NCBI GenBank assembly: GCA_965243395.1
Contig: CBDEUS010000001.1
Location: forward strand, 512,001 to 576,000
DNA: 64,000 nucleotides
Reading direction: 5' to 3'
DNA from: Gammaproteobacteria bacterium
Lineage (GTDB): Bacteria; Pseudomonadota; Gammaproteobacteria; UBA4575
Within the stretch, counting starts at the first letter, position 1. Each line of letters starts with the position of its first letter. Shown in pieces: positions 2,747 to 53,054 of this stretch. The notes below the pieces were generated by a model. The model saw nothing but the letters and a program-made list of their open reading frames with translations, did not search any database and was not told where the DNA came from. The translations under genes were made by a program, and so were the position numbers.

Positions 2747-4660
2747 ATGGGTAAGATCATTGGGATAGATTTAGGTACCACCAACTCATGCGTGGCCGTC
2801 ATGGAAGGTACTTCACCTAAAGTCATTGAGAATAGTGAAGGTGATAGAACCACACCTTCTATTGTGGCATTCACTGAAGATGATGAGGTGCTTGTTGGTC
2901 AAGCGGCAAAACGTCAATCGGTTACTAATCCTCAAAATACTTTATACGCTATAAAACGCTTAGTAGGCCGTCGTTATGAAGAGGACGCGGTGCAAAAAGA
3001 TATCAAGCTTGTTCCTTATAAAATTATCAAAGCAGATAACGGTGATGCATGGGTAGAAGTGGGTGGTAAAAAAATGGCTCCACCTGAAGTTTCTGCACGT
3101 GTATTAATGAAAATGAAAAAAACAGCTGAAGATTATCTCGGTGAAGAGGTAACAGAAGCCGTTATTACTGTACCGGCATATTTTAATGACTCGCAACGTC
3201 AAGCGACTAAAGACGCAGGTAAAATTGCCGGACTTGAAGTAAAAAGAATTATCAATGAGCCAACAGCCGCCGCATTGGCTTATGGCATGGACAAAAAACG
3301 CGGTGATAGCAAAATTGCTGTCTACGATTTAGGTGGTGGTACTTTTGATATTTCGATAATCGAAATTGCTGAAGTTGATGGCGAACACCAATTCGAAGTG
3401 TTATCTACAAATGGTGATACTTTCTTAGGTGGTGAAGATTTTGATATGCGTTTAATTGACTACCTTGCAGACGAGTTTAAAAAAGATCAAGGCTTTGATC
3501 TACACAATGACCCGCTTGCATTGCAAAGACTTAAAGAAGCGGCTGAAAAAGCTAAAATCGAATTATCTTCTGGTCAGCAAACAGAAGTTAATCTACCTTA
3601 TATCACTGCGGATGCTTCAGGCCCTAAACATTTAAATATTAAATTAACGCGTGCCAAGCTTGAGTCACTTGTTGACGAATTAGTGCAACGTACGATTCCA
3701 CCCTGTAAGCAAGCACTTGAGGATGCCGGTTTGTCGGCATCTGATATCGATGATGTCATTTTAGTTGGTGGTCAAACACGTATGCCAAAAGTGCAGGAAA
3801 CTGTACAAGACTTTTTTGGTAAAGAGCCACGTAAAGATGTAAATCCTGATGAAGCTGTGGCTGTAGGTGCTGCTATCCAAGCTGGTGTACTGGGTGGTGA
3901 TGTTAAAGACGTATTGTTGTTAGATGTCACTCCACTTTCATTGGGTATTGAAACCTTAGGTGGAGTTATGACGAAATTAATTGAAAAGAACACAACGATA
4001 CCTACCAATGCTCAACAAGTGTTTTCTACAGCAGAAAATAATCAAACGGCTGTAACCGTGCATGTTCTGCAAGGTGAACGTGAGCAAGCTACTGCGAATA
4101 AATCTTTAGGTCGTTTTGACTTAACAGATATTCCTCCTGCACAACGTGGTGTGCCGCAAATTGAAGTGACTTTTGATATTGATGCGAATGGTATTTTAAA
4201 TGTTTCAGCAAAAGACAAAGCAACGGGTAAAGAGCAATCGATAGTGATCAAAGCTTCCAGTGGCTTATCTGATGATGAAATTGAAAATATGGTCAAAGAT
4301 GCTGAAGCGCATGCTGAAGAAGACAAGAAATTTAGTGAGCTGGTTGCAGCCCGTAATACTGCAGACCAAATGATTCATGCAACGGAAAAATCTCTTGAAG
4401 AAATGGGAGATAAAGTTGAGCAAGAAGAACGCATGCAAATAGAAAATGCAGTTAAAGATCTTAAAGAAGTTTTAGATAAAGATGATAAAGATGTTATTGA
4501 AACAAAAACTCAAGCATTGGCAGAAGCGTCAAGTAAGTTAGCAGAGCGCATGTATGCGCAAGATGCTGCGAGTGGAGAAGCAGGCTCACAAGATGCCAAT
4601 GCCGCCGCAGATGACGATGTGGTAGATGCAGAGTTTGAAGAAGTTGATGACAACAAATAG
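2747..4660 (+). CDS. dnaK: Chaperone DnaK (Hsp70)
   Basis: [19 protein letters not shown] and the DAEFEEV C-terminus. Confidence 0.99.
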
Positions 4661-4688
4661 CATTTAAGTTGCTATAAAACTTAATTAG

Positions 4689-4723
4689 AAAATCCGAGTA
4701 CGTGAAGACGTCCTCGGATTTTT
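4689..4723 (+). terminator. Hairpin/intrinsic terminator between dnaK and dnaJ
   Basis: AAAATCCGAG ... CTCGGATTTTT inverted repeat. Confidence 0.6.
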
Positions 4724-4750
4724 CATATTTAGCTAAATAAATTTAAAAGC

Positions 4751-5875
4751 ATGGATAAAAAAGATTATTACGATGTTCTTGGGGTAGAACGAAACGCAAG
4801 TGAAGGAGAATTGAAAAAAACCTTCCGACGTCTTGCAATGAAATATCACCCTGATCGTAATCCAGGTGATAAAGAAGCCGAAGAAAAATTTAAAGAAGCT
4901 AAAGAAGCCTATGAAGTGTTAGGGGATCCTAGTAAACGCCAAGCTTATGATCAATTTGGTCACGCGGGTGTGCAAGGAGGTGTTGGAGGCGGCGCAGCAG
5001 ATTTTGGCGATATATTTGGCGATATCTTCGGTGACATATTTGGGGGTGGTCGCGGGGGAGGACAGCGTGTCTATCGTGGTGCAGACCTTCAATACAGTTT
5101 GCAAGTAAGTCTCGAAGAAGCCGTATTTGGCGCTGAGTCAACAATCGAGATTCCAAAGCAAACTACTTGTGAAAAATGTGATGGTTCAGGCGCTGCACCA
5201 AACTCAACAATCGAAACCTGTGAAACTTGCGGTGGTGTTGGACAAGTTCGCATGCAGCAAGGTTTCTTTTCAATTCAACAGACATGTCCTACATGCAGAG
5301 GCAAAGGTAAGATCATTAAAGTACCTTGTGATTATTGTAATGGCACCGGTCGCACCAAACAAAATAAAAAATTATCCATTAAAGTCCCAGCTGGTGTAGA
5401 TACAGGAGATCGAATTCGTTTATCGGGTGAAGGTGAAGCGGGACCTAATAACGGTCCACCAGGCGACCTTTATGTGGAAATTAATGTGCGCTCACATGAA
5501 TTATTTACCCGTGATGATAATGATCTGTTGTGCCAAGTCCCCATTAGTTTCAGTCTAGCTGCATTGGGTGGTGAAATTGAGGTACCGACACTTAATGGGA
5601 AAGTTAAGTTGAAAATACCCAGCGAAACGCAATCAGGGCGACTATTTAGATTACGTGGTAAAGGCGTAAAACCGGTAAGGGGTGGTATTACAGGTGATAT
5701 GTTATGCACCACCATCGTTGAAACACCAATTAACTTAACTAAAAAGCAAAAAGATCTCATCCAGGAATTTTCTACAGAATTAGAAAAAGGTGGAAATCGT
5801 CATAGCCCTAAATCTCATTCATGGACGGATAATGTAAGGGGCTTCTTTGATAACTTAAAATTCTGGGACGAATGA
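4751..5875 (+). CDS. dnaJ: Chaperone DnaJ
   Basis: J-domain HPD motif, G/F region, four CxxCxGxG zinc repeats. Confidence 0.99.
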
Positions 5876-7419: not shown

Positions 7420-7782
7420 ATGGCATTAACTTATGTTTTGCTTTTATTTTCTGGCTTGTTTATTGGTATAGCGGCATCATTTACTGGTCTGGGGGGCGGA
7501 TTTTTAATGGTGCCTTTATTAATTGCACTTGGCTATACCGCGCAAAAAGCGGTAGGCACCTCTTTTCTAGCTATTTTGATCATTGCAGTTTCTGCTGTAT
7601 TCGCACATTCAAAATTTGCCAATGTAGATTTTAAAATTGCCATAGCTTTAGGTTTAGGAGGAATTATTGGTGCACAAATAGGCCCTTATTTATTAGAGCA
7701 TGTATCTACCGCAAATTTTAAAAAGATATTTTCATTTATATTGATCGCATTCGCAGGCTATCTATTTTTCAGCAAAACATAA
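7420..7782 (+). CDS. Half-size TauE/SafE-family sulfite exporter-like membrane protein
   Basis: GLGGGFLMVP and AQKAVGTS motifs, about 4 TM segments; GGAG RBS before ATG 7420. Confidence 0.8.
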   Translation: MALTYVLLLFSGLFIGIAASFTGLGGGFLMVPLLIALGYTAQKAVGTSFLAILIIAVSAVFAHSKFANVDFKIAIALGLGGIIGAQIGPYLLEHVSTANFKKIFSFILIAFAGYLFFSKT

Positions 7783-8102
7783 TGGACATTGAAACAGACG
7801 AAGATGGGTTTTTATTAGATCCCGGAGATTGGACAGAAGAAATTGCTGAATATATAGCGGAAAAAGAAAATGTAGAATTAACTGATGAGCGTTGGTATTT
7901 AATACACCTCATTCGCGAGTATTATTCGTATTATGGCGCTGTTCCAGAATTACGTAAAATACTAAAAAAATTAAAAGAAGAATTAGGCCGGGAAAAAGCA
8001 ACTCGCAAATATGTCTATGGCCTTTTCCCTTATGGCTACGGTCAGCAAGGGTGCAAAATAGCCGGTATGCGGCAACCTAAAAAACTCTGGTTGGACTTAT
8101 AA
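7782..8102 (+). CDS. DsrC/TusE-family sulfur relay-like protein lacking the C-terminal Cys
   Basis: ETDEDGFLLDP.DW.E.IA...A..E...LT, LFPYG and GCKIAG motifs; ends KKLWLDL rather than the usual P..C(V/I). TAATG overlap with the upstream gene. Confidence 0.88.
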   Translation: MDIETDEDGFLLDPGDWTEEIAEYIAEKENVELTDERWYLIHLIREYYSYYGAVPELRKILKKLKEELGREKATRKYVYGLFPYGYGQQGCKIAGMRQPKKLWLDL

Positions 8103-8126
8103 TTAATATTTTAGCTTGATAAGAAT

Positions 8127-8345
8127 ATGAAATTTCGGATTTTAATTTTGATATTAAACGCACTGCTCTTTATTGGATGTAGTGATCAATCATATGTTGA
8201 AGAAAAACCTCACTCTTCAAAACTCAGTGATGACAATGTGTTTAAAGGTTATGAATCTGCTTTAGACAAGGCTAAAGGGGTTGAGCAAACGATTATGGAT
8301 GCGGCGGAACAACGAAGAAAAGAATTAGAAGATCGTGGATATTAG
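8127..8345 (+). CDS. Small hypothetical lipoprotein
   Basis: Hydrophobic N-terminus with a lipobox-like LFIG-C, then a helical charged region. Confidence 0.7.
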   Translation: MKFRILILILNALLFIGCSDQSYVEEKPHSSKLSDDNVFKGYESALDKAKGVEQTIMDAAEQRRKELEDRGY

Positions 8346-8443
8346 ACTTATTTCTAATAAGTTTCGAGATGGAAAGAAAAGCGCTATATTTAGAATTGAA
8401 TAAACACAATTGGCTAAAAGTAAACATAAACTTAGATTAAAGC

Positions 8444-9813: not shown

Positions 9814-10965
9814 TTGAGCCAACAACCCGCCTTGCTTGCCTTAGAAGACGGGAGTCTTTTTTGGGGAAGCTCTATTGGTATATCGGGTTTGTCGGTAGGG
9901 GAAGTTGTTTTCAATACTTCCATGACAGGATATCAAGAAATTCTCACCGATCCCTCTTACGCTCAACAAATAATTACCTTGACCTACCCACATATTGGCA
10001 ATGTCGGTGCCAATGATGAAGATGAAGAATCACCCAAAATTTTTGCCACTGGGTTAGTTATTCGCGACTTACCAGTGCAGGTTAGCAATTGGCGTCAAGA
10101 GTCTGATTTATCTTCTTATTTGCAAAAAAATAATGTTGTTTCAATTGCCAATATTGATACACGCAGGCTGACCCGAATTTTGCGTGAAAAAGGTGCGCAA
10201 AACGGTGCCATTATGGCAGGTAAAAAGATGAGTGAGATTAATGAAGAGGAGGCATTAGCTGCAGCCAAATCATTTCCCGGCTTAAAAGGTATGGATTTGG
10301 CAAAAGAGGTTACAACTACCAAACCTTATCATTGGGATGAAGGCTGTTGGTCATTAGAGGAGGGGTATAAAAACAATCAAGAGCAAAAAAAATTCAAAGT
10401 TTTCGCCTATGACTTTGGAGTGAAACGTAACATTCTTCGTATTCTTCATGACTTGGGTTGTGAACTGGAAGTGATCCCTGCAAAGACTTCGGCAAGTGAA
10501 GTGTTGGCAAAAAAACCGGATGGTGTATTTCTTTCTAATGGGCCTGGTGATCCTGAACCCTGTGACTATGCAATCAAAGCTATTCAAGAAATTGTTGCAG
10601 CAGGTATACCCACTTTTGGGATTTGTCTAGGGCACCAACTTTTAGGTTTAGCGTGTGGGGCAAATACTATCAAAATGAAATTTGGTCATCATGGCGCGAA
10701 TCATCCAGTACAAGACTTAAAAACTAAAACGGTAATGATTAGCAGTCAGAATCATGGTTTTGCTGTAGACGAAAAAACTTTGCCAAGCGAATTAGAGGCC
10801 ACTCACCGTTCTTTGTTTGATGGTTCTTTACAAGGCATACGCCATACACAAAAACCTGCTTATAGTTTTCAAGGTCATCCTGAAGCCAGTCCTGGGCCGC
10901 AAGATGTAAGACCATTGTTCAACGAATTTATCAAGATGATGCAAGCATATAAGCAGGCAGAATAA
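9814..10965 (+). CDS. carA: Carbamoyl-phosphate synthase small subunit
   Basis: [29 protein letters not shown] and [11 protein letters not shown] motifs; TTG 9814 follows an AGGAG RBS (ORF track start 9790). Confidence 0.98.
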
Positions 10966-36172: not shown

Positions 36173-36381
36173 GTTCACCCTCATAAAAACATCGCAAAAA
36201 TCTTATTAAATATATGTAAATAAATGATGCATTTACAGCTAGTTAGAGCATATAGTTAAGATTCTATTGTATTTTTACTAGGGTATTCAGTTCAGTTAAT
36301 AACACGGTATAATGGACCATTAAAAATAATACATACCGTCAAATTAGAATATCAATAAAGACTTAATTAAGGAGTTTGCAA

Positions 36382-36744
36382 ATGAGTGAAGCCAGCTTAT
36401 ATGAGCGTCTCGGTGGAGGAGACAAAATCAGAGATATCGTTGCCGATGTATGGGCAAATCATACTAGTAACCCTAAGGTTAAAAATCGTTATGTGAATAG
36501 TGACGGTGAAAAGGTTAAGCAAGTGGTATGGGAATTTTTCTGTTCGGGTATCGGTGGGCCTCAAGAGTACACGGGTCAAGACATGCTTACTGCTCACACG
36601 GGTATGAATATCAATGATACCGAATTCAATGCTGTATGCGATGACGTGCTAGCTGCATTAGACAAGAATAATGTGGGTCAGAAGGAAAGAGATGAAGTGC
36701 TTTGTATCCTCTATTCCATGAAAGGCGATATTGTCGACGTATAA
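36382..36744 (+). CDS. Group 1 truncated (2/2) hemoglobin
   Basis: SLYERLGG, GGPQEYTG.DM..AH.GMNI...EF motifs with proximal His; AAGGAG RBS. Confidence 0.92.
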   Translation: MSEASLYERLGGGDKIRDIVADVWANHTSNPKVKNRYVNSDGEKVKQVVWEFFCSGIGGPQEYTGQDMLTAHTGMNINDTEFNAVCDDVLAALDKNNVGQKERDEVLCILYSMKGDIVDV

Positions 36745-46648: not shown

Positions 46649-47059
46649 ATGAGTGACAAACAAAAAATTAATAAAACAGACGAAGAATGGCGTAAGGAAC
46701 TAACGCCGGAGCAGTTTTATATTTGTAGACAAAAAGGAACAGAGTCTGCATTCAGTGGCAAATTTAATGCGCATAAAGAAAATGGTAGGTATGTTTGCGT
46801 TGCATGTAAAACACCATTATTCAATTCGGACCACAAGTTTGATTCAGGTTCTGGTTGGCCAAGTTTTTTTCAACCATTGAATAAAGAATGCATTCAAGAA
46901 GAGTTTGATGAATCATTTGGCATGCGTAGAACCGAGGTGATGTGTAATGTTTGTGGTGCACATTTAGGGCATGTATTTGAAGATGGGCCGCAGCCCACTG
47001 GCCTCAGATATTGCATTAATTCCATTGCCCTGGACTTTGATCCTGAAAAAAACATTTAA
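46649..47059 (+). CDS. msrB: Peptide methionine-R-sulfoxide reductase
   Basis: KFDSGSGWPSF and HLGHVF.DGP.PTGLRYCINS motifs, two CxxC. Confidence 0.98.
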   Translation: MSDKQKINKTDEEWRKELTPEQFYICRQKGTESAFSGKFNAHKENGRYVCVACKTPLFNSDHKFDSGSGWPSFFQPLNKECIQEEFDESFGMRRTEVMCNVCGAHLGHVFEDGPQPTGLRYCINSIALDFDPEKNI

Positions 47060-47256: not shown

Positions 47257-47265
47257 TGTTATAAT
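47257..47265 (+). promoter_or_regulatory. Extended -10 promoter upstream of the monooxygenase gene
   Basis: TG-T-TATAAT, about 110 nt upstream of a GGAGGT RBS and ATG 47378. Confidence 0.5.
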
Positions 47266-47377
47266 TTTCTTAAATATCAGTATGCTGGCTCAATAAAATA
47301 ATAAGTGCTTCATACTCGATAACGAATATCGTAACCCTATTTTTCTATAATCTACTTTCTTCTTGATGGAGGTAAAC

Positions 47378-48526
47378 ATGAAGAAACTATTAATCAACGC
47401 GCGCTATTTTTTAGCCCCGTTTTTAATATTAGCGAGTTTATTCGGTGTATTAGCGGGGGGTCCATGGGTATGGACCGGCGTATTACTACTGGGACTGGGT
47501 ATCATCATAGACACCCTGACAACAGCACAAACACCCGGCGCGGGATTTGACGAAAACGGCGACACCAACGGCATCGTGCCCTTACTGAATGGCACCATGT
47601 ACGGCATGCTGGCGGTATTTGTCCTTTTGCAACTGGCCCTTGCCTGGCGCATCTGGCAATACACCAACGGCGTCCCTGTTGTACCGGGGGGTGAAACCAT
47701 CCTGGGCCTTGCGGTTCAAGACGGCATCACCGGCAGCCAACTTGTAGGCGCAGTACTATCCACCGGCATCTTTGCCGGCATCGGCATCATCTACGGACAC
47801 GAACTGGCGCACACCAAAGGCTTCAGCTTCGTGATTGCGCGCTGGATGATGGCATTAAGTGGCAAAGCCCACTTCTGCTACGCGCACGTATACAACCACC
47901 ACCTAGAACTCGGTCACCAAGACGACCCAGCGACCGCGCCACGCGGGCGCAGCATGTACGCCCACTACCCACTATCCGGGTTGGGGCAAAGCAAATTCCT
48001 CTTCATGATGGAAAAACAACGTCTTGAAAGACTAGGAGTACCCTTCCTATCCTGGCAAAACCGCTGGATCCGAGGCTACTTCATGGCATTGCCAACCGTA
48101 CTTCTGTTCTGGTTCGTAGGCGGCTGGCTTGGCATGCTCTGCTTAGCGGGCGTATGGCTGATCTCCAACTTCGAACTCGAAGTCCTCAACTACCTTGAGC
48201 ACTACGGATTGATTCGCGAGAAAGGCCAACCGATTGACTACCGTCATAGCTGGGACAACTCCACCGCGTTTACCAGCTGGTTCTTTATCGAGATTGGTCG
48301 CCAGGCCGACCATCACGATCGCGGCGAGACCCACTTTTGGGAACTCGACGAAGTGGGTGCACCGAACTGCGGACGCGGCTACTTCACCCTGTTTGCATTA
48401 GGCTTATTGCCACCGGTGTTTCATGCCTACATGAAGCAACAGTTGGCGAAGTGGGATGACGAGATGGCCTCTGAGGGCGAACTTAAGATCGCGGACCAGA
48501 TGAATAAACAGGCCGGGTACGCTTAA
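47378..48526 (+). CDS. Integral-membrane non-heme diiron monooxygenase (AlkB/XylM, fatty-acid-desaturase superfamily)
   Basis: His boxes HELAH, AHVYNHH, NYLEHYG and QADHH; DPATAPRG motif; XylM-like termini (RYFLAP..., WD...ASEGE...A...NKQAG). Confidence 0.9.
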   Translation: MKKLLINARYFLAPFLILASLFGVLAGGPWVWTGVLLLGLGIIIDTLTTAQTPGAGFDENGDTNGIVPLLNGTMYGMLAVFVLLQLALAWRIWQYTNGVPVVPGGETILGLAVQDGITGSQLVGAVLSTGIFAGIGIIYGHELAHTKGFSFVIARWMMALSGKAHFCYAHVYNHHLELGHQDDPATAPRGRSMYAHYPLSGLGQSKFLFMMEKQRLERLGVPFLSWQNRWIRGYFMALPTVLLFWFVGGWLGMLCLAGVWLISNFELEVLNYLEHYGLIREKGQPIDYRHSWDNSTAFTSWFFIEIGRQADHHDRGETHFWELDEVGAPNCGRGYFTLFALGLLPPVFHAYMKQQLAKWDDEMASEGELKIADQMNKQAGYA

Positions 48527-48550
48527 TTCGTACTCCAAGTTTAAGTTGCG

Positions 48551-48598
48551 TGCTTAGTTCACCTGTTCAAAATTTGGGCAGGTGAGGTGAGCATTTTT
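48551..48598 (+). terminator. Long hairpin with U-tract after the monooxygenase gene
   Basis: TGCTTA..TCACCTGTTCAAA / TTTGGGCAGGTGA..TGAGCA followed by TTTTT. Confidence 0.7.
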
Positions 48599-48674
48599 AG
48601 TCAAAAAGCTATTAAAATCTGAAAAAAAACGGCAAACTATAGCCATATAATTAAGTAGAACAGGAGTTCCAACA

Positions 48675-48854
48675 ATGAAAGTAACTTATGATGCAGACAC
48701 ATGCAGTCATGCAGGAGAGTGTGTAAAAGGTTCACCCACAGTATTTAAAGTAGAAGACGGTCAATTTGTAATTGATACTGACGCTGCGCCGGAAGCAGAA
48801 ATTCGTGAAACTGTTTCTAAGTGCCCATCAGGTGCTTTAAAAATAGAAGGTTAG
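48675..48854 (+). CDS. Small divergent mono-cluster ferredoxin (YjdI/Fer4_19-like), 59 aa
   Basis: Manual translation MKVTYDADTCSHAGECVKGSPTVFKVEDGQFVIDTDAAPEAEIRETVSKCPSGALKIEG with CxHxxxC ... CPSGAL; AGGAG RBS; missed by the ORF track. Confidence 0.85.
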   Translation: MKVTYDADTCSHAGECVKGSPTVFKVEDGQFVIDTDAAPEAEIRETVSKCPSGALKIEG

Positions 48855-49007
48855 ACTGATAAGAATCAGTTTTAGAGTTTTACTTTAGTGCTGATTAACA
48901 CTAAAGTTTTAAATAAATAAAAATGAATGGTTGAGGAGTGTTTTTTACAGAGCACACTTAACATTGTTTAAAATTATCCTAATGAAGTTTGTCAATTAGG
49001 GGGAGAT

Positions 49008-49661
49008 ATGATTGGAGATCAACTAAGAACAAAAATGATTTTGAGCGGACATCCAAGTTGTCCAAACACAGGAAAATGTTTACAAACTGCTGGTGAAAAA
49101 GGTGTTGATGTAGAAACCGTGGTGATCAGCGGAATGGATGACAGTGATTTTCTAGCAAAATCTCCTTATGGCATCGGTCCTGTACTACAAGATATTGACT
49201 TTATTGTTTATGGGACAACTGCTGTGATGTCATATCTTGATGATAAAGGCTTTGGCCCATCTCTTGTTCCACGGAATGGCGTACATCGAGCAGTGATGTA
49301 TCAATGGGCTGGTATAGCAACTGAAAAAGTTCAGGCCATGATGGGAGATAACATGGATAAAGATGGACTTGGTACGTTGTTTGACGGTTTAGAAGCACAA
49401 GTTAAAAATCCACCTAAGAAAGGTGATTTTATTTGTGGTGATTTTTCATTGGCTGATATTCACTGGGCTGCTTGCTGTAACTTACTAGAGCACTCTGGTG
49501 CTGGTGATTTAATAAGTTCTCGCTCCGGTGTTAGTGCCTGGTATGACAAAGTAAAATCGCACCCATCAACTAGTAAAGAAAAGCTTGAGCCATACAGCTG
49601 CTTGCCAACTGCAAGTGATGTAAGTTCTGGTACTTTGCGAGATATTTCAATAAACGTTTAG
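49008..49661 (+). CDS. Glutathione S-transferase-fold protein
   Basis: N-terminal SPYG..PVLQD.D..V....AV.SYLDD and C-terminal FICGDFSLADI...W...VKSHPS patterns of cytosolic GSTs; GGGGAG RBS. Confidence 0.85.
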   Translation: MIGDQLRTKMILSGHPSCPNTGKCLQTAGEKGVDVETVVISGMDDSDFLAKSPYGIGPVLQDIDFIVYGTTAVMSYLDDKGFGPSLVPRNGVHRAVMYQWAGIATEKVQAMMGDNMDKDGLGTLFDGLEAQVKNPPKKGDFICGDFSLADIHWAACCNLLEHSGAGDLISSRSGVSAWYDKVKSHPSTSKEKLEPYSCLPTASDVSSGTLRDISINV

Positions 49662-49732
49662 AAAATATTTCTTTTTTAAACACATACAAGCGTTCTCAAT
49701 ACTGGAAAGGACGCCAGTGAGTACTCGAAATC

Positions 49733-50812
49733 ATGTTTGGACTATTCGGCGGTAATAAAGACTGGCATGCAACCATCAATGCTGGTGAGCACACTATCAC
49801 GGTTAAAGCCGGTGACAATTTATTAAATGCTGCACTTGAGGCAGGTATACCTTGGCCTCATGATTGCCGTGTAGGGAGTTGCAGTACCTGTCAGTGCACA
49901 CTGAAAAGTGGCAAAATCAAAGCATTAACTGATTTTTCTTATGTGTTAGATCCTGACCAACTTAAAAGTGGCAGGATATTGGCATGTCAAACACGTTTAA
50001 AAACTGATGTAGAAATTGAGGTAGAGCTCAGTGATGCTCCTGCAGTTGAGCTTAAATCCTATGACGGCAAAATTATCAGTGCCAAAAACCTTACCCATGA
50101 CATTAAAGAATTAGTGATTAAATGTGATGGTGATGTTGATCACTCAGGAATGGCGGGACAATATTCAGAAGTAAAAATTGAATCAATTGAGGAACCTCGA
50201 TCCTATTCTTATGCAAAGGCTCCAAAGCAAGAGAAGCCAGGCGAGTTTACTTTTTATGTGCGTTTGGTGCCGAATGGTAAATTCACCGAGTGGCTATTTG
50301 CGGAAGATAGGGTGGGTGAAAGCGTTAAACTAACAGGACCGTATGGGCAATTTTATCGTCGTGAAGAAGACTCAACGATGGTTTGTATTGCTGGTGGAAG
50401 TGGGATGAGTGCGATTAAGGCAATATTGGAGGACTCTGCAGCACAGCAAATTAAGCGCGATTGTCTATATTTGTTTGGCGCACGTACCCAAGATGATCTT
50501 TATTGTATAGATGATATGGCTACCATTGGTACCAAGTGGAATAAAGATAATTCCTTTGAATTTGTACCAGTACTTAATATGGAACCAGAAGACAGTAATT
50601 GGGACGGTGCGAGGGGCTTGGTAACAGATTATTTGAAGTCAGCCTATGTGGATACTGGTAAAATAAACATGGGTAAGTCCCAAGGTTATTTATGTGGTCC
50701 ACCACCGATGATTGATGCGGCAATTGATGTAATGGTGGACCAGGGAATGAATAAAGAGAACATATTCTTTGATAAGTTCTTGGATGCGAGTTCAATGCCC
50801 GGAGGGCGTTAG
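49733..50812 (+). CDS. XylA-type 2Fe-2S ferredoxin/FAD-NAD(P)H reductase
   Basis: CRVGSCSTC ... LAC plant-type 2Fe-2S ligands, RSYS FAD motif, IAGGSG and YLCGPPPM motifs. Confidence 0.93.
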   Translation: MFGLFGGNKDWHATINAGEHTITVKAGDNLLNAALEAGIPWPHDCRVGSCSTCQCTLKSGKIKALTDFSYVLDPDQLKSGRILACQTRLKTDVEIEVELSDAPAVELKSYDGKIISAKNLTHDIKELVIKCDGDVDHSGMAGQYSEVKIESIEEPRSYSYAKAPKQEKPGEFTFYVRLVPNGKFTEWLFAEDRVGESVKLTGPYGQFYRREEDSTMVCIAGGSGMSAIKAILEDSAAQQIKRDCLYLFGARTQDDLYCIDDMATIGTKWNKDNSFEFVPVLNMEPEDSNWDGARGLVTDYLKSAYVDTGKINMGKSQGYLCGPPPMIDAAIDVMVDQGMNKENIFFDKFLDASSMPGGR

Positions 50813-50843
50813 GTATATTTATAAAGAGTATTAGGAGACGGTT

Positions 50844-51071
50844 ATGCGTACATTACAAGCATTAGGAGTAATGGCACTTTGGACCATTGCATTTTTAGGA
50901 ATTATGAACTGGCTTAATGTTGGCGCGCACAATAGAGAATGGTATTGGGCGCTTGGTACAGCACTGATGTTCATAATTATGATCATAGGTAATTTCTGGA
51001 TCTTTTTTGCAATTGGTAAAGAAGAACCATGGGATTGGGTCAAAAATAAAGAAAGTGGTGGTGAAGAATAG
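50844..51071 (+). CDS. Small two-TM hypothetical membrane protein
   Basis: AGGAG RBS, two hydrophobic helices, Trp-rich; last gene before the shared terminator. Confidence 0.75.
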   Translation: MRTLQALGVMALWTIAFLGIMNWLNVGAHNREWYWALGTALMFIIMIIGNFWIFFAIGKEEPWDWVKNKESGGEE

Positions 51072-51098
51072 TATTCACTATATTTTCAAGTTGAAAAT

Positions 51099-51134
51099 AA
51101 AAAAGGCTGCAATACTAAATGCGGCCTTTTTTTT
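51099..51134. terminator. Bidirectional intrinsic terminator
   Basis: AAAAAAGGCTGCA ... TGCGGCCTTTTTTTT between convergent genes. Confidence 0.85.
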
Positions 51135-52050
51135 ATTCGATAGTCTTACTTGAATAAGGGATTTTTTTAGTTTTTGGGATTTTTTCGACATCCCAATTTT
51201 CAATTGCCCAGCTCCACACTTGTGATAGAGATTCTTTAGCTAGGTTTTTGGGTGTCTCCTGGCCCAAGTCTTGTAAAGCCTGAAGCAGAATATTTACACA
51301 GTTATGTTTAGTAATTGCGCTTGCTTTCGTCTGTTTGCTTAATTTCTGCCCATGTTCATTCACTATGACGGGAACATGTAAAAAATCTGGAATAGGAAGT
51401 TGTAATAGTTTACATATATAAATTTGAATTGGTGCAAATGGCATTAAATCTATACCTCTAACAATCTCCGTAATTCCCTGCATTGCATCGTCTATAACTA
51501 CCGCTAAAGAATAACTCGGTAAATTAAATTTACGGTAAATTACTATGTCACCAATTTCATTCTGTAAATTGTGAATTTGTAAGCCATAGTGTAAATCTTG
51601 ATAAGACACGTCTTTTTTATCAACACGCAAGCGTAAGTTAAAATTTGTGTCAGTCAACGGTAGTTGTTTATTAGCGCAAATACCGGGGTAATGTTTACCT
51701 AAATCAGTTTTTTGTGGGTTATGTTCTAATTCTTTACGTGTGCACGAGCATGCATATATGTGCTGCTGTTGAATAAGTGTATCTAACGAAGAATGATAAT
51801 TTTCAAAACGAGTAGATTGATAAAGTGGTTCTTGGTCCCATTTAAATTGATAGATTTCAAGTGTGGATATAATATCTTCTGCCGCACCATGCACTTCTCT
51901 TGGTGGGTCGATGTCCTCAATGCGAATAAGCCACTCGCCATTATTATGTTTAGCTTGTAAATAACTTGCAGTTGCTGCAACAAGTGAGCCGTAATGCAAT
52001 GGCCCAGTAGGTGAAGGTGCGAATCTTCCTACATATCGAGGTTTTTTCAC
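51133..52050 (-). CDS. gluQ: Glutamyl-Q tRNA(Asp) synthetase
   Basis: YVGRFAPSPTGPLHYGS, RIEDID.PR and KLSKQ motifs, no anticodon-binding domain; downstream of dksA. Confidence 0.95.
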   Translation of the reverse strand: MKKPRYVGRFAPSPTGPLHYGSLVAATASYLQAKHNNGEWLIRIEDIDPPREVHGAAEDIISTLEIYQFKWDQEPLYQSTRFENYHSSLDTLIQQQHIYACSCTRKELEHNPQKTDLGKHYPGICANKQLPLTDTNFNLRLRVDKKDVSYQDLHYGLQIHNLQNEIGDIVIYRKFNLPSYSLAVVIDDAMQGITEIVRGIDLMPFAPIQIYICKLLQLPIPDFLHVPVIVNEHGQKLSKQTKASAITKHNCVNILLQALQDLGQETPKNLAKESLSQVWSWAIENWDVEKIPKTKKIPYSSKTIE

Positions 52051-52096: not shown

Positions 52097-52948
52097 CTAT
52101 GTAAATATTTGTTTTTCCTTAATTTCTTGAAGAGTTTTGCAGTCGATGCATAAAGTAGCAGTGGGTCTCGCTTCAAGGCGTTTGATGCCAATTTCTATTC
52201 CACACGATTCACAATACCCGTAGTCTTCGGCATCAATTGAGGCAAGTGTTTTATTAATTTTTCTTATTAGTTTGCTTTCACGGTCGCGTGTACGAAGCTC
52301 CAAGCTAAATTCTTCTTCCTGAGTAGCGCGATCAGCTGGGTCGGCAAATTGACTTGCATCGTTCTTCATTTGATCAACCGTGCGATTCACCTCATCTAAC
52401 AATTCTTGTTTCCACGTAAGAAGAATATTTCTGAAATGTTCTAACTGTTTATCGCTCATATAGCTTTCACCGCGATGCATGGTGTAGGGAGTAATACCTT
52501 CAACAGGTAGTTCTACAGGCGAGCGTTTATTAAGTAGTTCGATACGCTTCTTCTTTTTTTCTTCCCTTTTTGCCTGTAATTTTTGTTCTTGCAGTTCGGC
52601 TTTTGTGGGTTTTTTTTCTGCGGCTTTTTTTGCACTTACCTTCTTTGTGGCAGCCTTCTTTTTGGGTGCAGCCTTTTTCTTTACCGCAGCCTTCTTTTTG
52701 GGTGCAGCCTTTTTCTTTACCGCAGCCTTCTTTTTGGGTGCAGCCTTTTTCTTTACCGCAGCCTTTTTCTTGGGTGCAGCCTTTTTCTTTACCGCAGCCT
52801 TCTTTTTGGGTGCAGCTTTTTTCTTTACCGCAGCCTTCTTTTTGGGTGCAGCTTTTTTCTTTACCGCAGCCTTCTTCTTGGGTGCAGCCTTTTTCTTCGC
52901 TGCGGCCTTCTTCTTAGGTGTGGTTTTTTTCTTTGTCTTGGCTGGCAT
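52097..52948 (-). CDS. dksA: RNA polymerase-binding transcription factor DksA with N-terminal Lys/Ala/Pro repeat extension
   Basis: ADPADRATQEEE coiled-coil tip, CESC...CIDC zinc finger, RLEARPTA motif; likely start ATG 52948 (ORF track 53005). Confidence 0.95.
   Translation of the reverse strand: MPAKTKKKTTPKKKAAAKKKAAPKKKAAVKKKAAPKKKAAVKKKAAPKKKAAVKKKAAPKKKAAVKKKAAPKKKAAVKKKAAPKKKAAVKKKAAPKKKAATKKVSAKKAAEKKPTKAELQEQKLQAKREEKKKKRIELLNKRSPVELPVEGITPYTMHRGESYMSDKQLEHFRNILLTWKQELLDEVNRTVDQMKNDASQFADPADRATQEEEFSLELRTRDRESKLIRKINKTLASIDAEDYGYCESCGIEIGIKRLEARPTATLCIDCKTLQEIKEKQIFT
52646..52915 (-). repeat. In-frame tandem repeat, 15 x 18 bp (36-bp higher-order unit), encoding KKKAA[P/V]
   Basis: Plus-strand unit GCAGCCTTCTTTTTGGGTGCAGCCTTTTTCTTTACC repeated with a few synonymous changes. 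Confidence 0.95.
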
Positions 52949-53054
52949 GAATGACCCTCTTAAAATGAAGCCCGCTTTTATGCCAGATCTATCGCTCGGT
53001 GGCAAGCTACGATTTTAGGTAAGTCAGAAGTGATGTTGAAAATTGGCTTATTTA

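What the first reader, a model, noticed from the sequence alone, without database searches (positions are those of the whole stretch)
47257..51134. Candidate undescribed membrane diiron monooxygenase system: oxygenase + mini-ferredoxin + GST + XylA-type reductase + small membrane subunit
Seen: five co-directional genes, from an extended -10 promoter to a shared terminator. Known: AlkB uses rubredoxin and rubredoxin reductase, XylM/CymAa use a single ferredoxin-reductase fusion, and neither canonical operon includes a GST or a YjdI-like ferredoxin. Monooxygenase + GST coupling is known from isoprene degradation (soluble diiron IsoA-F with IsoI/IsoJ), where GST opens the epoxide. Inference: a distinct clade that either epoxidises an alkene or hydroxylates/demethylates a small heteroatom-methyl or halogenated substrate, then captures the reactive product with glutathione. 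No alcohol or aldehyde dehydrogenase is adjacent, unlike alk/xyl upper pathways. The substrate cannot be read from sequence.
Basis: partly seen in the sequence, partly recalled or inferred. Interest (0 to 1): 0.85.

Follow-up and report, generated by a model that had tools for sequence, protein, structure and literature searches.

The report
New AlkB/XylM-like oxygenase system with GST
A membrane iron oxygenase distantly related to alkane and xylene hydroxylases sits here with its own electron-supply genes, a glutathione-transferase-like partner found in no sampled genome that lacks it, and a tiny membrane protein; its substrate is unknown, and the gene is kept as two near-identical, unusually GC-rich copies.

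Summary
The five co-directional genes exist as described.

**What the oxygenase is.** It is an AlkB/XylM-superfamily membrane di-iron enzyme, about 30% identical to solved AlkB and to plasmid AlkB/XylM. It forms its own clade, outside canonical AlkB and XylM. One of the nine canonical iron-ligand histidines is glutamine in 15 of 15 clade members, against histidine in 123 of 124 other superfamily members.

**Partners.**
- The reductase is XylA-type, 40% identical.
- The ferredoxin–GST–reductase–small-membrane-protein cassette follows the oxygenase in 21 of 80 related loci.
- It persists elsewhere in the genome where the oxygenase lies apart.
- In 300 sampled gammaproteobacterial genomes the GST occurs only where the oxygenase clade occurs: 9 versus 11 genomes, none without it.
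- The GST has an invariant cysteine at the catalytic position, which fits the proposed epoxide or electrophile capture poorly.

**Copy number and composition.** The oxygenase ORF has two copies, identical at 1151 of 1152 nt. Their GC3 is 0.65 in a genome averaging 0.30, a pattern shared only with the duplicated tuf genes. This indicates GC-biased gene conversion, not transfer.

Substrate unknown. New variant of a known kind.

The parts
47257..47265 (+). TGTTATAAT, extended -10 promoter-like element upstream of the oxygenase. A second TATAAT lies at 47346-47351.
   Evidence: Read. Not listed by the consensus scan because there is no -35. Function not tested.
47378..48526 (+). Integral-membrane di-iron oxygenase, 382 aa, of a new AlkB/XylM-superfamily clade (copy A).
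- His boxes: HELAH, HVYNHH, NYLEHYG.
- Box 3 reads QADHH, with Gln309 where the family has His.
   Evidence: - Pfam PF00487, E 6.6e-29.
- Solved AlkB 8sbb, E 1.3e-26.
- Motif census.
- Trees.
- GC3 0.65.
- Second copy identical at 1151 of 1152 nt at G000:C2:722704-723855.
48550..48600 (+). Strong hairpin followed by a U-run directly after the oxygenase stop codon. Terminator- or attenuator-like.
   Evidence: Fold -28.5 kcal/mol, z -4.6; 0 of 200 shuffles fold as well.
48675..48854 (+). 59-aa Fer4_19 (YjdI-type) mini-ferredoxin.
   Evidence: - Pfam PF06902, E 4.6e-17.
- C10-x-H12-x-G-x-C16 ... C50-P-S-G-A is invariant in 26 of 26 orthologues.
49008..49661 (+). GST-like protein 'GSTa', 217 aa, with invariant Cys18 at the catalytic position.
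   Evidence: - Pfam GST_N_3, E 5.4e-9.
- Nearest solved structures are phi-class GSTs and SspA.
- Cys18 is present in 22 of 22 orthologues.
- Found only in genomes with the oxygenase clade: 9 versus 11 of 300.
49733..50812 (+). NAD(P)H-dependent reductase with an N-terminal plant-type [2Fe-2S] domain plus FAD and NAD domains (XylA/BenC type).
   Evidence: - Pfam Fer2, FAD_binding_6, NAD_binding_1.
- NCBIfam BenC, AntC and MmoC matches, all below their cut-offs.
- 40% identical to the reductase next to xylM on pWW53.
- Carbazole and benzoate dioxygenase reductases in the PDB, E 1e-41 to 1e-39.
50844..51071 (+). 75-aa protein with two hydrophobic stretches, probably a membrane partner of the oxygenase. 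No known family.
   Evidence: - 23 aligned homologues, mean column identity 59%.
- A paralogue, 39% identical (E 3e-12), follows the third oxygenase copy.
51099..51139 (.). Hairpin flanked by A and U runs, between the cluster and the convergent gluQ-type gene. Bidirectional terminator-like.
   Evidence: - Fold -22.2 kcal/mol, z -6.1.
- Only sub-threshold Rfam leader/terminator-type hits here.
46649..47059 (+). msrB (SelR domain), the conserved upstream neighbour. In relatives the oxygenase copy A sits exactly between msrB and the ferredoxin, or is missing from that spot.
   Evidence: Pfam SelR, E 5e-52. Synteny.
36376..36744 (+). Truncated (bacterial-like) globin, an orthologue of the globin that lies directly between oxygenase and ferredoxin in other lineages.
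   Evidence: - Pfam Bac_globin, E 2.9e-14.
- 65% identical to the L090 globin.
- A globin follows the oxygenase in 10 of 80 loci and in G036.

Best explanation
This is the main locus of a multi-component, O2-dependent membrane oxygenase system built on a previously uncharacterised clade of the AlkB/XylM (class III di-iron) superfamily.

**Likely working, and how firm each step is**
1. NAD(P)H reduces the FAD of the XylA-type reductase. Its [2Fe-2S] domain passes single electrons to the di-iron centre of the membrane oxygenase, directly or through the Fer4_19 ferredoxin. This rests on homology and on fused relatives.
2. The oxygenase activates O2 and oxidises a hydrophobic substrate reached from the membrane, by hydroxylation or possibly desaturation. 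The Gln-for-His ligand is an altered feature of the site. This is inference.
3. The clade-exclusive Cys-type GST-like protein GSTa, with its paralogues GSTb and GSTc at the third oxygenase locus, does thiol-dependent chemistry on the product or on the enzyme. This is inference and the weakest step.
4. The 75-aa membrane protein is a small subunit or anchor. This is inferred from conservation only.
5. A truncated globin, adjacent in other lineages, probably helps with O2 supply. This is inference.

**Regulation and standing.** Three oxygenase genes sit under three different upstream regions:
- an extended -10 element here;
- a divergent MerR-type regulator at copy B;
- FNR-type boxes at the 61% paralogue.

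The system is near-universal in this order and retained in 1.1-Mb genomes. That points to a core physiological reaction rather than an occasional catabolic add-on.

**The GC anomaly.** Copies A and B are homogenised by gene conversion. That, not foreign origin, explains the ORF's 54% GC in a 39% GC genome.

The substrate is not determined.
For: **Family and clade**
- Pfam FA_desaturase.
- Solved AlkB structures match at E 1.3e-26 and 2.9e-24.
- 54 plasmid records match, all below 60% identity, annotated AlkB, XylM or fatty acid desaturase.
- Library of 1.84 billion representatives: own cluster at 72% identity, then 33-36%.
- FastTree, 138 rows: clade of 14 rows at support 100 on a stem of 1.17.
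- IQ-TREE quick, 51 rows: clade of 15 rows at SH-aLRT 100, XylM 100, AlkB 100.

**Electron donor**
- The reductase is 40-41% identical to the reductases encoded next to xylM and next to a plasmid AlkB-like gene.
- Three of the closest outsiders that I scanned (P0133, P0148, P0171) are fused to complete Fer2-FAD-NAD reductases.
- An AlkB class fused to ferredoxin and ferredoxin reductase has been shown active (PMC8918992, passages).

**Partnership**
- The cassette lies in cis in 21 of 80 loci.
- In G017, G023, G041 and G043 the order pnp-(msrB)-fdx-GSTa-reductase-tm75 is kept with no oxygenase there; the oxygenase lies elsewhere.
- An adjacent GSTa-reductase pair is present in 5 of 5 further genomes whose oxygenase has the other context.
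- Class sample of 300 genomes: oxygenase clade in 11, GSTa in 9, all 9 among the 11, none without it.
- GSTb, GSTc and a tm75 paralogue flank the 61% paralogue. They are orthologous to genes of the single compact cluster in soil MAGs, Cocleimonas and G016.

**Core status**
- 47 of 52 genomes of the order have it; the 5 without are fragmented assemblies.
- The oxygenase is 86-88% identical between G000 and G017/G023, against 79-81% for PNPase.

**Active site**: 8 of 9 canonical His are kept. Gln309 is in 15 of 15 clade rows, against His in 123 of 124 others.

**Gene conversion**
- Copies A and B are 99.4-100% identical in 13 of 13 other genomes, while A copies differ by 10-26% between genomes.
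- The identity tract is the ORF only.
- GC3 is 0.65, against a mean of 0.297 (sd 0.047) over 1951 ORFs.
- The only comparable ORFs are the two tuf copies at 0.61. Single-copy rpl, rps, rpoBC and fusA genes are at 0.23-0.31.
- The single-copy paralogue is at 0.35.
Against: - No activity, expression or binding data exist.
- One canonical iron ligand is missing. By itself that could mean altered or even lost catalysis, although invariance over the whole clade argues for function.
- The ferredoxin is absent from some clusters (G016, G036), so it may be dispensable.
- G036 and G297 have the oxygenase without GSTa, so the GST is not needed by every member.
- GSTa may serve the neighbouring 1-Cys-type MsrB rather than the oxygenase, since msrB-fdx-GSTa synteny holds in many genomes. 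Against that, GSTa stays with the oxygenase where msrB is absent.
- A hairpin after the oxygenase gene questions co-transcription.
- Genomes of one order are kin, so the co-occurrence counts overstate independence.
Confidence: 0.62

Rival explanations
1. The oxygenase epoxidises an alkene, or hydroxylates or demethylates a small heteroatom-methyl or halogenated compound such as isoprene, DMS or a halomethane. A GST then conjugates glutathione to the reactive product.
For: - The GST partnership with the oxygenase clade is strict.
- Three paralogous GST-like genes belong to the system. From memory, this resembles the two GSTs (IsoI, IsoJ) of isoprene clusters; abstracts name isoGHIJ beside isoABCDEF.
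- The genome encodes glutathione synthetase.
- The hosts are marine, sponge-associated and sediment bacteria, where such volatiles occur (record titles).
- An OmpW-family gene lies near the third locus and a FadL/TodX gene upstream in Cocleimonas. Both families carry hydrophobic compounds (from memory).
Against: - GSTa carries an invariant Cys, not Ser or Tyr, at the catalytic position.
- The Glu-Ser pair that I recall as glutathione-binding reads Gly-Thr.
- GSTb and GSTc have Asp or His at that position in the sequences seen.
- No dehydrogenase, CoA-transferase or formaldehyde-handling gene accompanies the cluster in the loci annotated.
- The system is retained in 1.1-1.2 Mb genomes and is more conserved than PNPase. 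That is unusual for a peripheral detoxifying route.
Confidence: 0.2
2. The GST-like proteins are non-catalytic scaffold or adaptor subunits. They dock the soluble reductase or ferredoxin onto the membrane oxygenase, as proposed for the GST-like NdmE in the NdmCDE N-demethylase.
For: [quoted passage not shown]
- The best NCBIfam matches of GSTa, far below their cut-offs, are FzlA and SspA. From memory, both are protein-binding GST-fold proteins.
- The G-site motif is altered.
- GSTa lies directly upstream of the reductase in nearly all genomes examined.
- Co-occurrence with the oxygenase is exclusive.
Against: - An invariant Cys at the catalytic position in 22 of 22 orthologues suggests chemistry.
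- XylM-type enzymes work with the reductase alone (from memory).
- G036 and G297 lack GSTa.
- No fusion of GST with oxygenase or reductase was found. The search for longer forms gave nothing, which is weak evidence.
Confidence: 0.2
3. The enzyme is a housekeeping lipid-modifying enzyme that desaturates or hydroxylates an endogenous membrane lipid, not a catabolic hydrocarbon oxygenase.
For: - Near-universal in the order: 47 of 52 genomes.
- Kept in 1.1-Mb genomes.
- Very strong sequence conservation.
- Copy B lies next to fabA in 47 of 80 loci.
- Isoforms sit under different regulators, including an FNR-type one beside cbb3 oxidase genes.
- The Gln at the first position of the third His box is the hallmark of front-end desaturases (PMC4404247, passage).
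Against: - All detectable sequence affinity is to AlkB/XylM-type enzymes, with the NYxEHYG motif.
- No acyl-lipid, acyl carrier or lipid-transfer gene other than fabA is linked.
- fabA adjacency may be inherited synteny.
- The ubiquinone-hydroxylase variant of this idea is not supported: G000 has two Ubi-type flavin hydroxylases and Coq7.
Confidence: 0.18
4. It is an ordinary n-alkane hydroxylase (AlkB) used to grow on alkanes, merely annotated poorly.
For: - Sources name relatives 'alkane 1-monooxygenase'.
- The His-box architecture and NYxEHYG motif are present.
- One rubredoxin gene exists elsewhere in the genome.
Against: - It lies outside the canonical AlkB clade, which has support 100.
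- Identity is 28-34%.
- Gln replaces a ligand His described as invariant and indispensable in AlkB (PMC10110569, passages).
- None of 80 loci holds a rubredoxin or Zn-alcohol dehydrogenase. An aldehyde dehydrogenase occurs in only 10 loci of one lineage, 3.5-5 kb away on the other strand.
Confidence: 0.1
5. The high-GC oxygenase ORF is a recent horizontal acquisition or an assembly chimera. The cluster is therefore a chance juxtaposition.
For: The ORF alone is 54% GC between neighbours of 37-42%. The change is sharp at the ORF borders.
Against: - The same two contexts with near-identical copies occur in 13 of 13 other genomes checked, and the copies differ between genomes.
- Single-copy relatives have GC3 like their own genomes.
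- The duplicated tuf and a duplicated binding-protein gene show the same GC3 rise in this genome, while single-copy highly expressed genes do not.
- The accessory cassette co-occurs with the oxygenase across families.
Confidence: 0.03

Closest known systems
XylMA xylene/toluene side-chain monooxygenase (TOL-type plasmids)
   Same: - Integral-membrane His-box di-iron hydroxylase plus a single Fer2-FAD-NAD reductase.
- The reductase is 40% identical to the one next to xylM on pWW53.
- The clade groups loosely with the XylM side of the family: 24-row group, SH-aLRT 94.
- Glu305 is shared with XylM.
   Different: - The oxygenase is only about 29-32% identical and does not nest in the XylM group, which has support 100.
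- Gln replaces the first His of box 3.
- It has extra partners: Fer4_19 ferredoxin, three GST-like proteins, a 75-aa membrane protein and a truncated globin.
- It lacks the flanking benzyl-alcohol and benzaldehyde dehydrogenases seen on pWW53.
AlkB alkane 1-monooxygenase (AlkB-AlkG-AlkT; solved structures 8sbb, 8f6t)
   Same: - Same superfamily and motif order: HELxH, Hx3HH, NYxEHYG, xxxHH.
- E 1.3e-26 to the solved structure.
   Different: - Separate clade.
- No rubredoxin or rubredoxin reductase in the locus, unlike the alkB-rubredoxin-aldehyde dehydrogenase order on a Pseudomonas plasmid.
- One of the nine ligand His is Gln. Those His are stated to be invariant and indispensable in AlkB (PMC10110569).
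AlkB-type hydroxylases fused to ferredoxin and ferredoxin reductase (ferr_ferrR_AlkB class)
   Same: - The electron path runs through a Fer2-FAD-NAD module rather than rubredoxin.
- The nearest non-clade relatives include such fusions (P0133, P0148, P0171).
- The class was reported active (PMC8918992, passages).
   Different: - Here the components are separate genes.
- Identity is 30-35%.
- The fusions carry the canonical RHSHHH box and have no known GST partner.
NdmCDE caffeine N7-demethylase with GST-like NdmE
   Same: An oxygenase and a reductase accompanied by a dedicated GST-like protein (PMC4408171, passages).
   Different: - NdmC is a soluble non-haem iron oxygenase of the Rieske-oxygenase family, not a membrane di-iron enzyme.
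- No sequence relation was tested.
- The structural role is only postulated there and untested here.
Isoprene monooxygenase cluster (isoABCDEF with isoGHIJ)
   Same: A monooxygenase genetically coupled to glutathione transferases (abstracts).
   Different: - IsoA-F is a soluble di-iron monooxygenase.
- The iso clusters carry dehydrogenase and CoA-transferase-type genes (isoH, isoG; from memory).
- The GST here is Cys-type.
Front-end fatty-acid desaturases
   Same: Gln instead of His at the first position of the third His box (PMC4404247, passage).
   Different: No close sequence relation. They are cytochrome-b5-linked eukaryotic-type enzymes (from memory). The shared change is most likely convergent.

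Membership tests
AlkB/XylM superfamily (membrane class III di-iron, Pfam FA_desaturase) | Match to PF00487 above its cut-off | tested here: met
   101.9 bits against a cut-off of 29.7, E 6.6e-29.
AlkB/XylM superfamily | Four His-rich motifs supplying nine His ligands (2 + 3 + 1 + 3) | tested here: not met
   - Eight His are kept: H141, H145, H170, H174, H175, H275, H312, H313.
- The first His of box 3 is Gln309 in 15 of 15 clade rows, against His in 123 of 124 others.
- I mapped the nine ligands from motif counts. The paper's own residue list is in a supplementary figure that I did not see.
AlkB/XylM superfamily | NYxEHYG motif | tested here: met
   NYLEHYG at 271-277, invariant in alignment A2.
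AlkB/XylM superfamily | AlkB fold (six transmembrane helices with a cytosolic di-iron cap) | not tested
   Structure prediction accepted no jobs.
Canonical AlkB (AlkBGT) | Nests with characterised AlkB in a tree | tested here: not met
   The AlkB group has support 100 and excludes the clade.
Canonical AlkB (AlkBGT) | Rubredoxin partner encoded with it | tested here: not met
   None of 80 loci has a rubredoxin within 6 kb. One rubredoxin lies elsewhere in G000.
Canonical AlkB (AlkBGT) | n-Alkane terminal hydroxylation | not testable with these tools
   Needs an enzyme assay.
XylMA | Adjacent Fer2-FAD-NAD reductase of XylA type | tested here: met
   40% identity, E 3e-90, to the gene next to xylM on pWW53.
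XylMA | Nests with XylM in a tree | tested here: not met
   The XylM group (4 rows, support 100) excludes it. Both sit in a wider 24-row group at SH-aLRT 94.
XylMA | Upper-pathway alcohol and aldehyde dehydrogenases alongside | tested here: not met
   None of 80 loci has a Zn-alcohol dehydrogenase. An aldehyde dehydrogenase occurs only in 10 loci of one lineage and is not adjacent. Compare pWW53.
Glutathione S-transferase (conjugating classes) | GST N- and C-terminal domains | tested here: met
   - GST_N_3 36.7 bits (cut-off 22).
- GST_C_3 21.5 bits (cut-off 21.6).
- Phi-class GSTs in the PDB, E 5e-12.
Glutathione S-transferase (conjugating classes) | Catalytic Ser or Tyr at the start of helix 1 | tested here: not met
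   Cys18 aligns with the Ser of the phi-class PMST motif. I recall that Ser as the catalytic residue; no call labels it. Cys18 is invariant in 22 of 22 orthologues.
Fer4_19 (YjdI-type) ferredoxin | Pfam PF06902 match and cluster ligands | tested here: met
   62.2 bits against a cut-off of 24. The C-x-H-x-G-x-C ... CP pattern is invariant in 26 of 26 sequences.
NdmCDE-like oxygenase with a structural GST | Physical complex of the GST-like protein with oxygenase and reductase | not testable with these tools
Isoprene-type monooxygenase and GST pathway | Soluble di-iron monooxygenase subunits and isoG/isoH-type genes | tested here: not met
   The oxygenase is a membrane His-box enzyme. No dehydrogenase or CoA-transferase Pfam hits occur in the annotated clusters. 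isoG and isoH were not searched by profile.

The most novel reading that the evidence does not exclude
The oxygenase clade, with its exclusive Cys-GST trio, small membrane subunit and truncated globin, is the key enzyme of an unrecognised major reaction in SUP05-related heterotrophs, sponge and invertebrate symbionts and sediment bacteria. The reaction would be oxidation of an abundant small marine compound, such as DMS or another methyl-thioether, isoprene or other phytoplankton volatiles, or a halocarbon. A glutathione-dependent second step would follow, run at low oxygen.

Expression would be high enough for the gene to be kept, like tuf, as two copies homogenised by conversion. The His-to-Gln ligand change would mark a new reactivity within membrane di-iron enzymes.
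Probability: 0.2. Interest if true: 0.9.

Novelty: new variant of a known kind. Interest (0 to 1): 0.64.

Why it matters
AlkB/XylM-type enzymes are the main tools bacteria use to attack unactivated C-H bonds in hydrocarbons. Marine surveys routinely count any 'alkB' as alkane degradation.

This clade is annotated as alkane 1-monooxygenase or fatty acid desaturase. It differs in four respects:
- it is a separate lineage with a changed iron ligand;
- it has a dedicated set of partners not reported with AlkB in the papers I searched;
- it is a core gene of small-genome marine and symbiotic gammaproteobacteria;
- it is held in copies that convert each other.

If its substrate is a common marine volatile or sulfur compound, it would add a missing sink to a biogeochemical budget. 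If it is an endogenous lipid, it would be a new membrane-lipid modification.

Either way it is a clean case for testing what a Gln ligand does in a His-rich di-iron site, and what a GST-fold protein does beside an oxygenase.

The GC3 pattern (oxygenase, tuf and a binding-protein gene raised; ribosomal protein and RNA polymerase genes not) is also a compact natural example of GC-biased gene conversion in a bacterium.

Tried and rejected
- **Horizontal transfer or chimera as the cause of the GC jump**: rejected.
- **Codon adaptation to high expression as the cause**: rpl, rps, rpoBC and fusA genes have GC3 of 0.23-0.31, so rejected as the sole cause.
- **Ubiquinone hydroxylase role**: G000 already has two Ubi-type hydroxylases and Coq7.
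- **Autotrophy context**: no RuBisCO large subunit found in G000, which is 100% complete.
- **Riboswitch or known RNA element** in the cluster or upstream of copy B: only sub-threshold hits, at the terminator.
- **Fused forms of the oxygenase among longer proteins**: none found, which is weak evidence.
- **Expression**: no RNA holder was listed among 24 runs.
- **FNR consensus TTGAT-N4-ATCAA with up to 1 mismatch**: no site in the GSTb upstream region. The variant CTGAT-N4-ATCAG occurs there twice.
- **Literature**: searches for alkB with GST, ferredoxin reductase and Thiotrichales; Porisulfidus; Thioglobus with alkane 1-monooxygenase; and SUP05 with alkB (with passages in 69 and 70) gave no description of this clade or cluster.
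  - Structure prediction took no jobs.
  - The protein atlas did not hold the two sequences.
  - So fold, binding, atlas neighbours and source names of relatives are untested.
- **MerR-type regulator at copy B**: its B12-binding match is below the Pfam cut-off (30.6 against 32.1 bits) and absent in two relatives. I make no claim of light or B12 control.

Full report
**Observation.** The window holds five co-directional + strand ORFs between msrB (46649-47059) and a convergent gluQ-type gene.
- 47378-48526: FA_desaturase-family membrane protein.
- 48675-48854: Fer4_19 ferredoxin.
- 49008-49661: GST-like protein.
- 49733-50812: Fer2-FAD-NAD reductase.
- 50844-51071: 75-aa hydrophobic ORF without any family.

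The start of the first gene is best placed at ATG 47378, 5 nt after GGAGG. TGTTATAAT is at 47257-47265. A hairpin with A and U runs at 51099-51139 folds well (z -6.1).

A stronger hairpin plus U-run lies right after the oxygenase stop codon (48550-48600, z -4.6), and a weaker one after the ferredoxin. The 'one promoter, one terminator' picture is therefore too simple. In relatives that lack the oxygenase at this spot, the four downstream genes must have their own promoter.

**A compositional anomaly, and what it means.** The oxygenase ORF alone is 54% GC with GC3 0.65. All neighbours are 33-43% GC with GC3 0.20-0.40.

The window's genome (G000, 2.58 Mb, 38.6% GC) has a second copy on the other contig. 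It is identical at 1151 of 1152 nt. The identity starts 3 nt before the ATG and ends at the stop codon.

Among 1951 ORFs of at least 150 aa, mean GC3 is 0.297 (sd 0.047). The four highest are the two oxygenase copies (0.65) and the two tuf copies (0.61). A duplicated Peripla_BP_6 binding-protein gene is at 0.48. Single-copy rplK, rplA, rplJ, rpoB, rpoC, rpsL, rpsG and fusA, which lie between the tuf copies, are at 0.23-0.31.

These three pairs are the only dispersed repeats of at least 400 nt and 95% identity in the genome.

In 13 of 13 other genomes that have both contexts, the two copies are 99.4-100% identical. The tract runs from 10-17 nt upstream of the ATG to at most about 95 nt past the stop. 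A copies of different genomes are only 74-90% identical (18 pairs).

Single-copy relatives in low-GC genomes have genome-like GC3 of 0.25-0.41. The divergent paralogue in G000 has 0.35.

I read this as long-running concerted evolution with GC-biased gene conversion. It is neither horizontal transfer nor codon adaptation. That bacterial recombination is GC-biased I recall from the literature; my search did not retrieve a paper on it.

**What the oxygenase is.**
- The only solved relatives are two AlkB structures (E 1.3e-26 and 2.9e-24).
- 54 plasmid records match, all below 60% identity, annotated AlkB, XylM or fatty acid desaturase. The best is 34% over 76% of the length.
- In the 50%-clustered library of 1.84 billion proteins, the hits fall from the query's own cluster (72%, 636 bits, plus fragments) straight to 33-36% identity (193 bits and below).
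- FastTree on 138 rows: 119 library representatives of at least 330 aa, 11 clade sequences, and 8 reference or own sequences. The clade of 14 rows has support 100 on a stem of 1.17 changes per column. It is separate from canonical AlkB (15 rows, 100) and XylM (4 rows, 100).
- IQ-TREE quick on 51 chosen rows agrees: clade of 15 rows at SH-aLRT 100. It loosely joins the clade with XylM and two other groups (24 rows, 94).

**Active site.** HELxH, Hx3HH and NYxEHYG are intact. The first His of the last box (RHSDHH in AlkB, NHINHH in XylM) is Gln309 in 15 of 15 clade rows and His in 123 of 124 others. H165 and H319 are invariant in all 15 clade rows but variable among the other 124 (His in 15 and 7). 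Glu305 is shared with XylM.

Guo et al. state that nine His from four motifs bind the two irons, and that they are invariant and indispensable (PMC10110569, passages). Their residue list is in a supplementary figure that I could not see. My assignment of Gln309 to a ligand position rests on the motif count.

The same His-to-Gln change at the first position of the third box is the known mark of front-end desaturases (PMC4404247, passage).

**The partners belong to the oxygenase.** The 80 best related loci from public genomes fall into three groups.
- 21 loci have oxygenase-fdx-GST-reductase in this order. The small ORF is present in 20 of them.
- 47 loci have a second context: fabA on the opposite strand upstream, usually with a MerR-type regulator, then the oxygenase, often followed by a 241-aa protein of no family.
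- 12 loci are other contexts or cut contigs.

G000 has one copy in each of the first two contexts.

In genomes whose only copy is in the fabA context, the cassette pnp-(msrB)-fdx-GSTa-reductase-tm75 is still there, simply without the oxygenase (G017, G023, G041, G043). An adjacent GSTa-reductase pair was found in all 5 such genomes tested through loci, including genomes of 1.1-1.2 Mb.

In an evenly drawn sample of 300 gammaproteobacterial genomes at least 90% complete:
- the oxygenase clade (E up to 1e-90) is in 11;
- GSTa (E up to 1e-30) is in 9;
- all 9 are among the 11, and none of the other 289 has GSTa;
- the two carriers without GSTa are the most divergent, at 58-60% identity.

These genomes come from about eight families, and kin are not independent.

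Within the window's order, 47 of 52 genomes have the oxygenase. The 5 without are assemblies of 80-250 contigs. In one of them (G020), gene fragments sit on short contigs, two at contig starts.

**A larger system.** G000 has a third, 61% identical oxygenase gene. Two further GST-like genes (195 and 264 aa) precede it, and a 70-aa paralogue of the small membrane protein follows it (39% identity, E 3e-12). It lies beside ccoNOP.

The three GST-like proteins are paralogues of one another. Each is orthologous to one of three GSTs in a single compact cluster found in soil MAGs, an uncultured Cocleimonas and G016. That cluster reads oxygenase-globin-fdx-GSTa-reductase-tm-GSTb-GSTc-orf145, and G016 lacks the globin, fdx and reductase there.

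A truncated globin follows the oxygenase directly in 10 of 80 loci and in G036, whose cluster is just oxygenase-globin-reductase. G000's orthologue (65%) is at window 36376-36744.

Upstream of GSTb, a divergent Crp-family gene has an N-terminal C-x2-C-x5-C cluster. From memory, that is the FNR oxygen-sensing signature. Two perfect CTGAT-N4-ATCAG palindromes lie in the intergenic region, against 0.02 expected in the locus.

**Electron supply.** The reductase is 40% and 41% identical over its full length to the reductases next to xylM (pWW53) and next to a plasmid AlkB-like gene. Three of the closest non-clade relatives that I scanned are fused to complete Fer2-FAD-NAD modules. Such fusions have been shown active (PMC8918992, passages).

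The ferredoxin keeps C-x-H-x-G-x-C ... CP in 26 of 26 orthologues but is missing from some clusters. I therefore treat it as an optional or regulatory shuttle.

**The GST.** GSTa is nearest to phi-class GSTs and SspA and, far below the cut-offs, to FzlA and SspA models. Cys18 aligns with the catalytic Ser of phi-class enzymes and is invariant in 22 of 22 orthologues. The residue before it varies. The usual Glu-Ser pair reads Gly-Thr (the roles of these motifs are from memory).

A catalytic Cys points to thiol transfer, deglutathionylation or reduction rather than conjugation. That weakens the 'capture of an epoxide' idea without excluding a multi-GST route in which other members conjugate and GSTa removes glutathione, as I recall for the Lig enzymes of lignin ether cleavage. 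A purely structural role, as postulated for NdmE (PMC4408171, passages), remains open. The complex prediction that could have informed this was unavailable.

**What it most likely does.** The shown parts are family, clade, motif change, partnership, distribution and concerted evolution. The inferred parts are electron flow from NAD(P)H through the reductase (and perhaps the ferredoxin) to the di-iron site, O2-dependent oxidation of a hydrophobic substrate, thiol chemistry by GSTa, and a membrane subunit role for tm75.

Several features mark it as a central reaction of these bacteria:
- it is retained in streamlined genomes;
- it is more conserved than PNPase (86-88% against 79-81% between G000 and G017/G023);
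- it comes as isoforms under a MerR-type regulator and an FNR-type regulator;
- a globin is linked to it;
- it is one of only three gene pairs the genome keeps as converting duplicates.

G000 has no RuBisCO, has glutathione synthetase and one rubredoxin, and has a full set of ubiquinone hydroxylases. I could not decide between an external small substrate and an endogenous lipid.

**Limits.**
- There is no expression evidence: no RNA run was listed.
- Structure and complex prediction, atlas, cluster-member names and earlier-findings tools gave no answers.
- Trees are FastTree or IQ-TREE quick only, without bootstraps or AU tests.
- Library representatives carry no names.
- Paper supplements were not available.

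**Verdict.** This is a new, well-delimited variant of the AlkB/XylM kind, with an unusual ligand set and an exclusive GST-fold partner, and its substrate is unknown.

Noticed in passing
G000:C2:1187370-1188573 and 1203909-1205112; G000:C1:591742-593121 and C2:1003805-1005184: Besides the oxygenase, the only dispersed duplicated genes in the genome are tuf (99.6% identical, GC3 0.61) and a 449-aa Peripla_BP_6 binding protein (100% identical, GC3 0.48). Single-copy translation and transcription genes between the tuf copies have GC3 of 0.23-0.31. This is a compact signal of GC-biased gene conversion.
   Followed up: yes
L013 (G000:C2:714000-732000) 7439-8413 (-) and 9967-10692 (+): Copy B of the oxygenase is flanked by two genes.
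- A divergent MerR-family regulator whose C-terminal B12-binding-like match is below the Pfam cut-off.
- A conserved 241-aa protein of no family.

A CDGSH iron-sulfur protein and fabA lie just upstream.
   Followed up: partly
L014 (G000:C2:658000-672000) 4296-5033 (-), 5148-5161, 5208-5221: An FNR-type regulator (N-terminal C-x2-C-x5-C) lies divergent from GSTb-GSTc-oxygenase paralogue-tm70. Two perfect CTGAT-N4-ATCAG palindromes sit between them. ccoNOP follows, and an OmpW-family gene and a globin-like ORF lie upstream. This suggests low-oxygen control of the paralogue.
   Followed up: partly
window 52097-53005 (-): The DksA-type protein has an N-terminal extension of about 130 aa made of Lys/Ala-rich repeats (KKKAAPKKKAAV...), reminiscent of histone-H1-like tails. 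It is also seen as a strong AT-skew dip in the composition profile.
   Followed up: no
G000 contig ends (C1:1-9348, C2:1-10404; C1:1272337-1279210, C2:1292134-1299313): Both contigs begin and end in the same tandem repeats, with periods of about 387 and 318 nt and 53-57% GC. The repeats lie inside giant ORFs of 5018 and 3156 aa. The assembly is evidently broken inside two repeat-rich giant genes.
   Followed up: no
window 46649-47059 (+): MsrB here has GSGWP where I recall two-Cys MsrBs having GCGWP. It is therefore probably a 1-Cys MsrB, which would need glutathione/glutaredoxin-type or thioredoxin recycling. It sits next to the fdx-GSTa-reductase cassette in many genomes, so GSTa could also serve it.
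   Followed up: no
window 36376-36744 (+); G000:C2:1163536-1163886; G000:C2:660515-660871: The genome holds three truncated-globin-like ORFs. The one in the window is orthologous to the globin that is adjacent to the oxygenase in other lineages. Another lies about 4 kb upstream of the third oxygenase locus.
   Followed up: partly
L094 169-5750 (uncultured Cocleimonas record): Upstream of the compact oxygenase cluster lie a FadL/TodX-type outer-membrane channel, an acyl-CoA dehydrogenase, and a PAS histidine kinase with a LuxR-type response regulator. This is the only annotated locus with hints of uptake and beta-oxidation of a hydrophobic compound.
   Followed up: no
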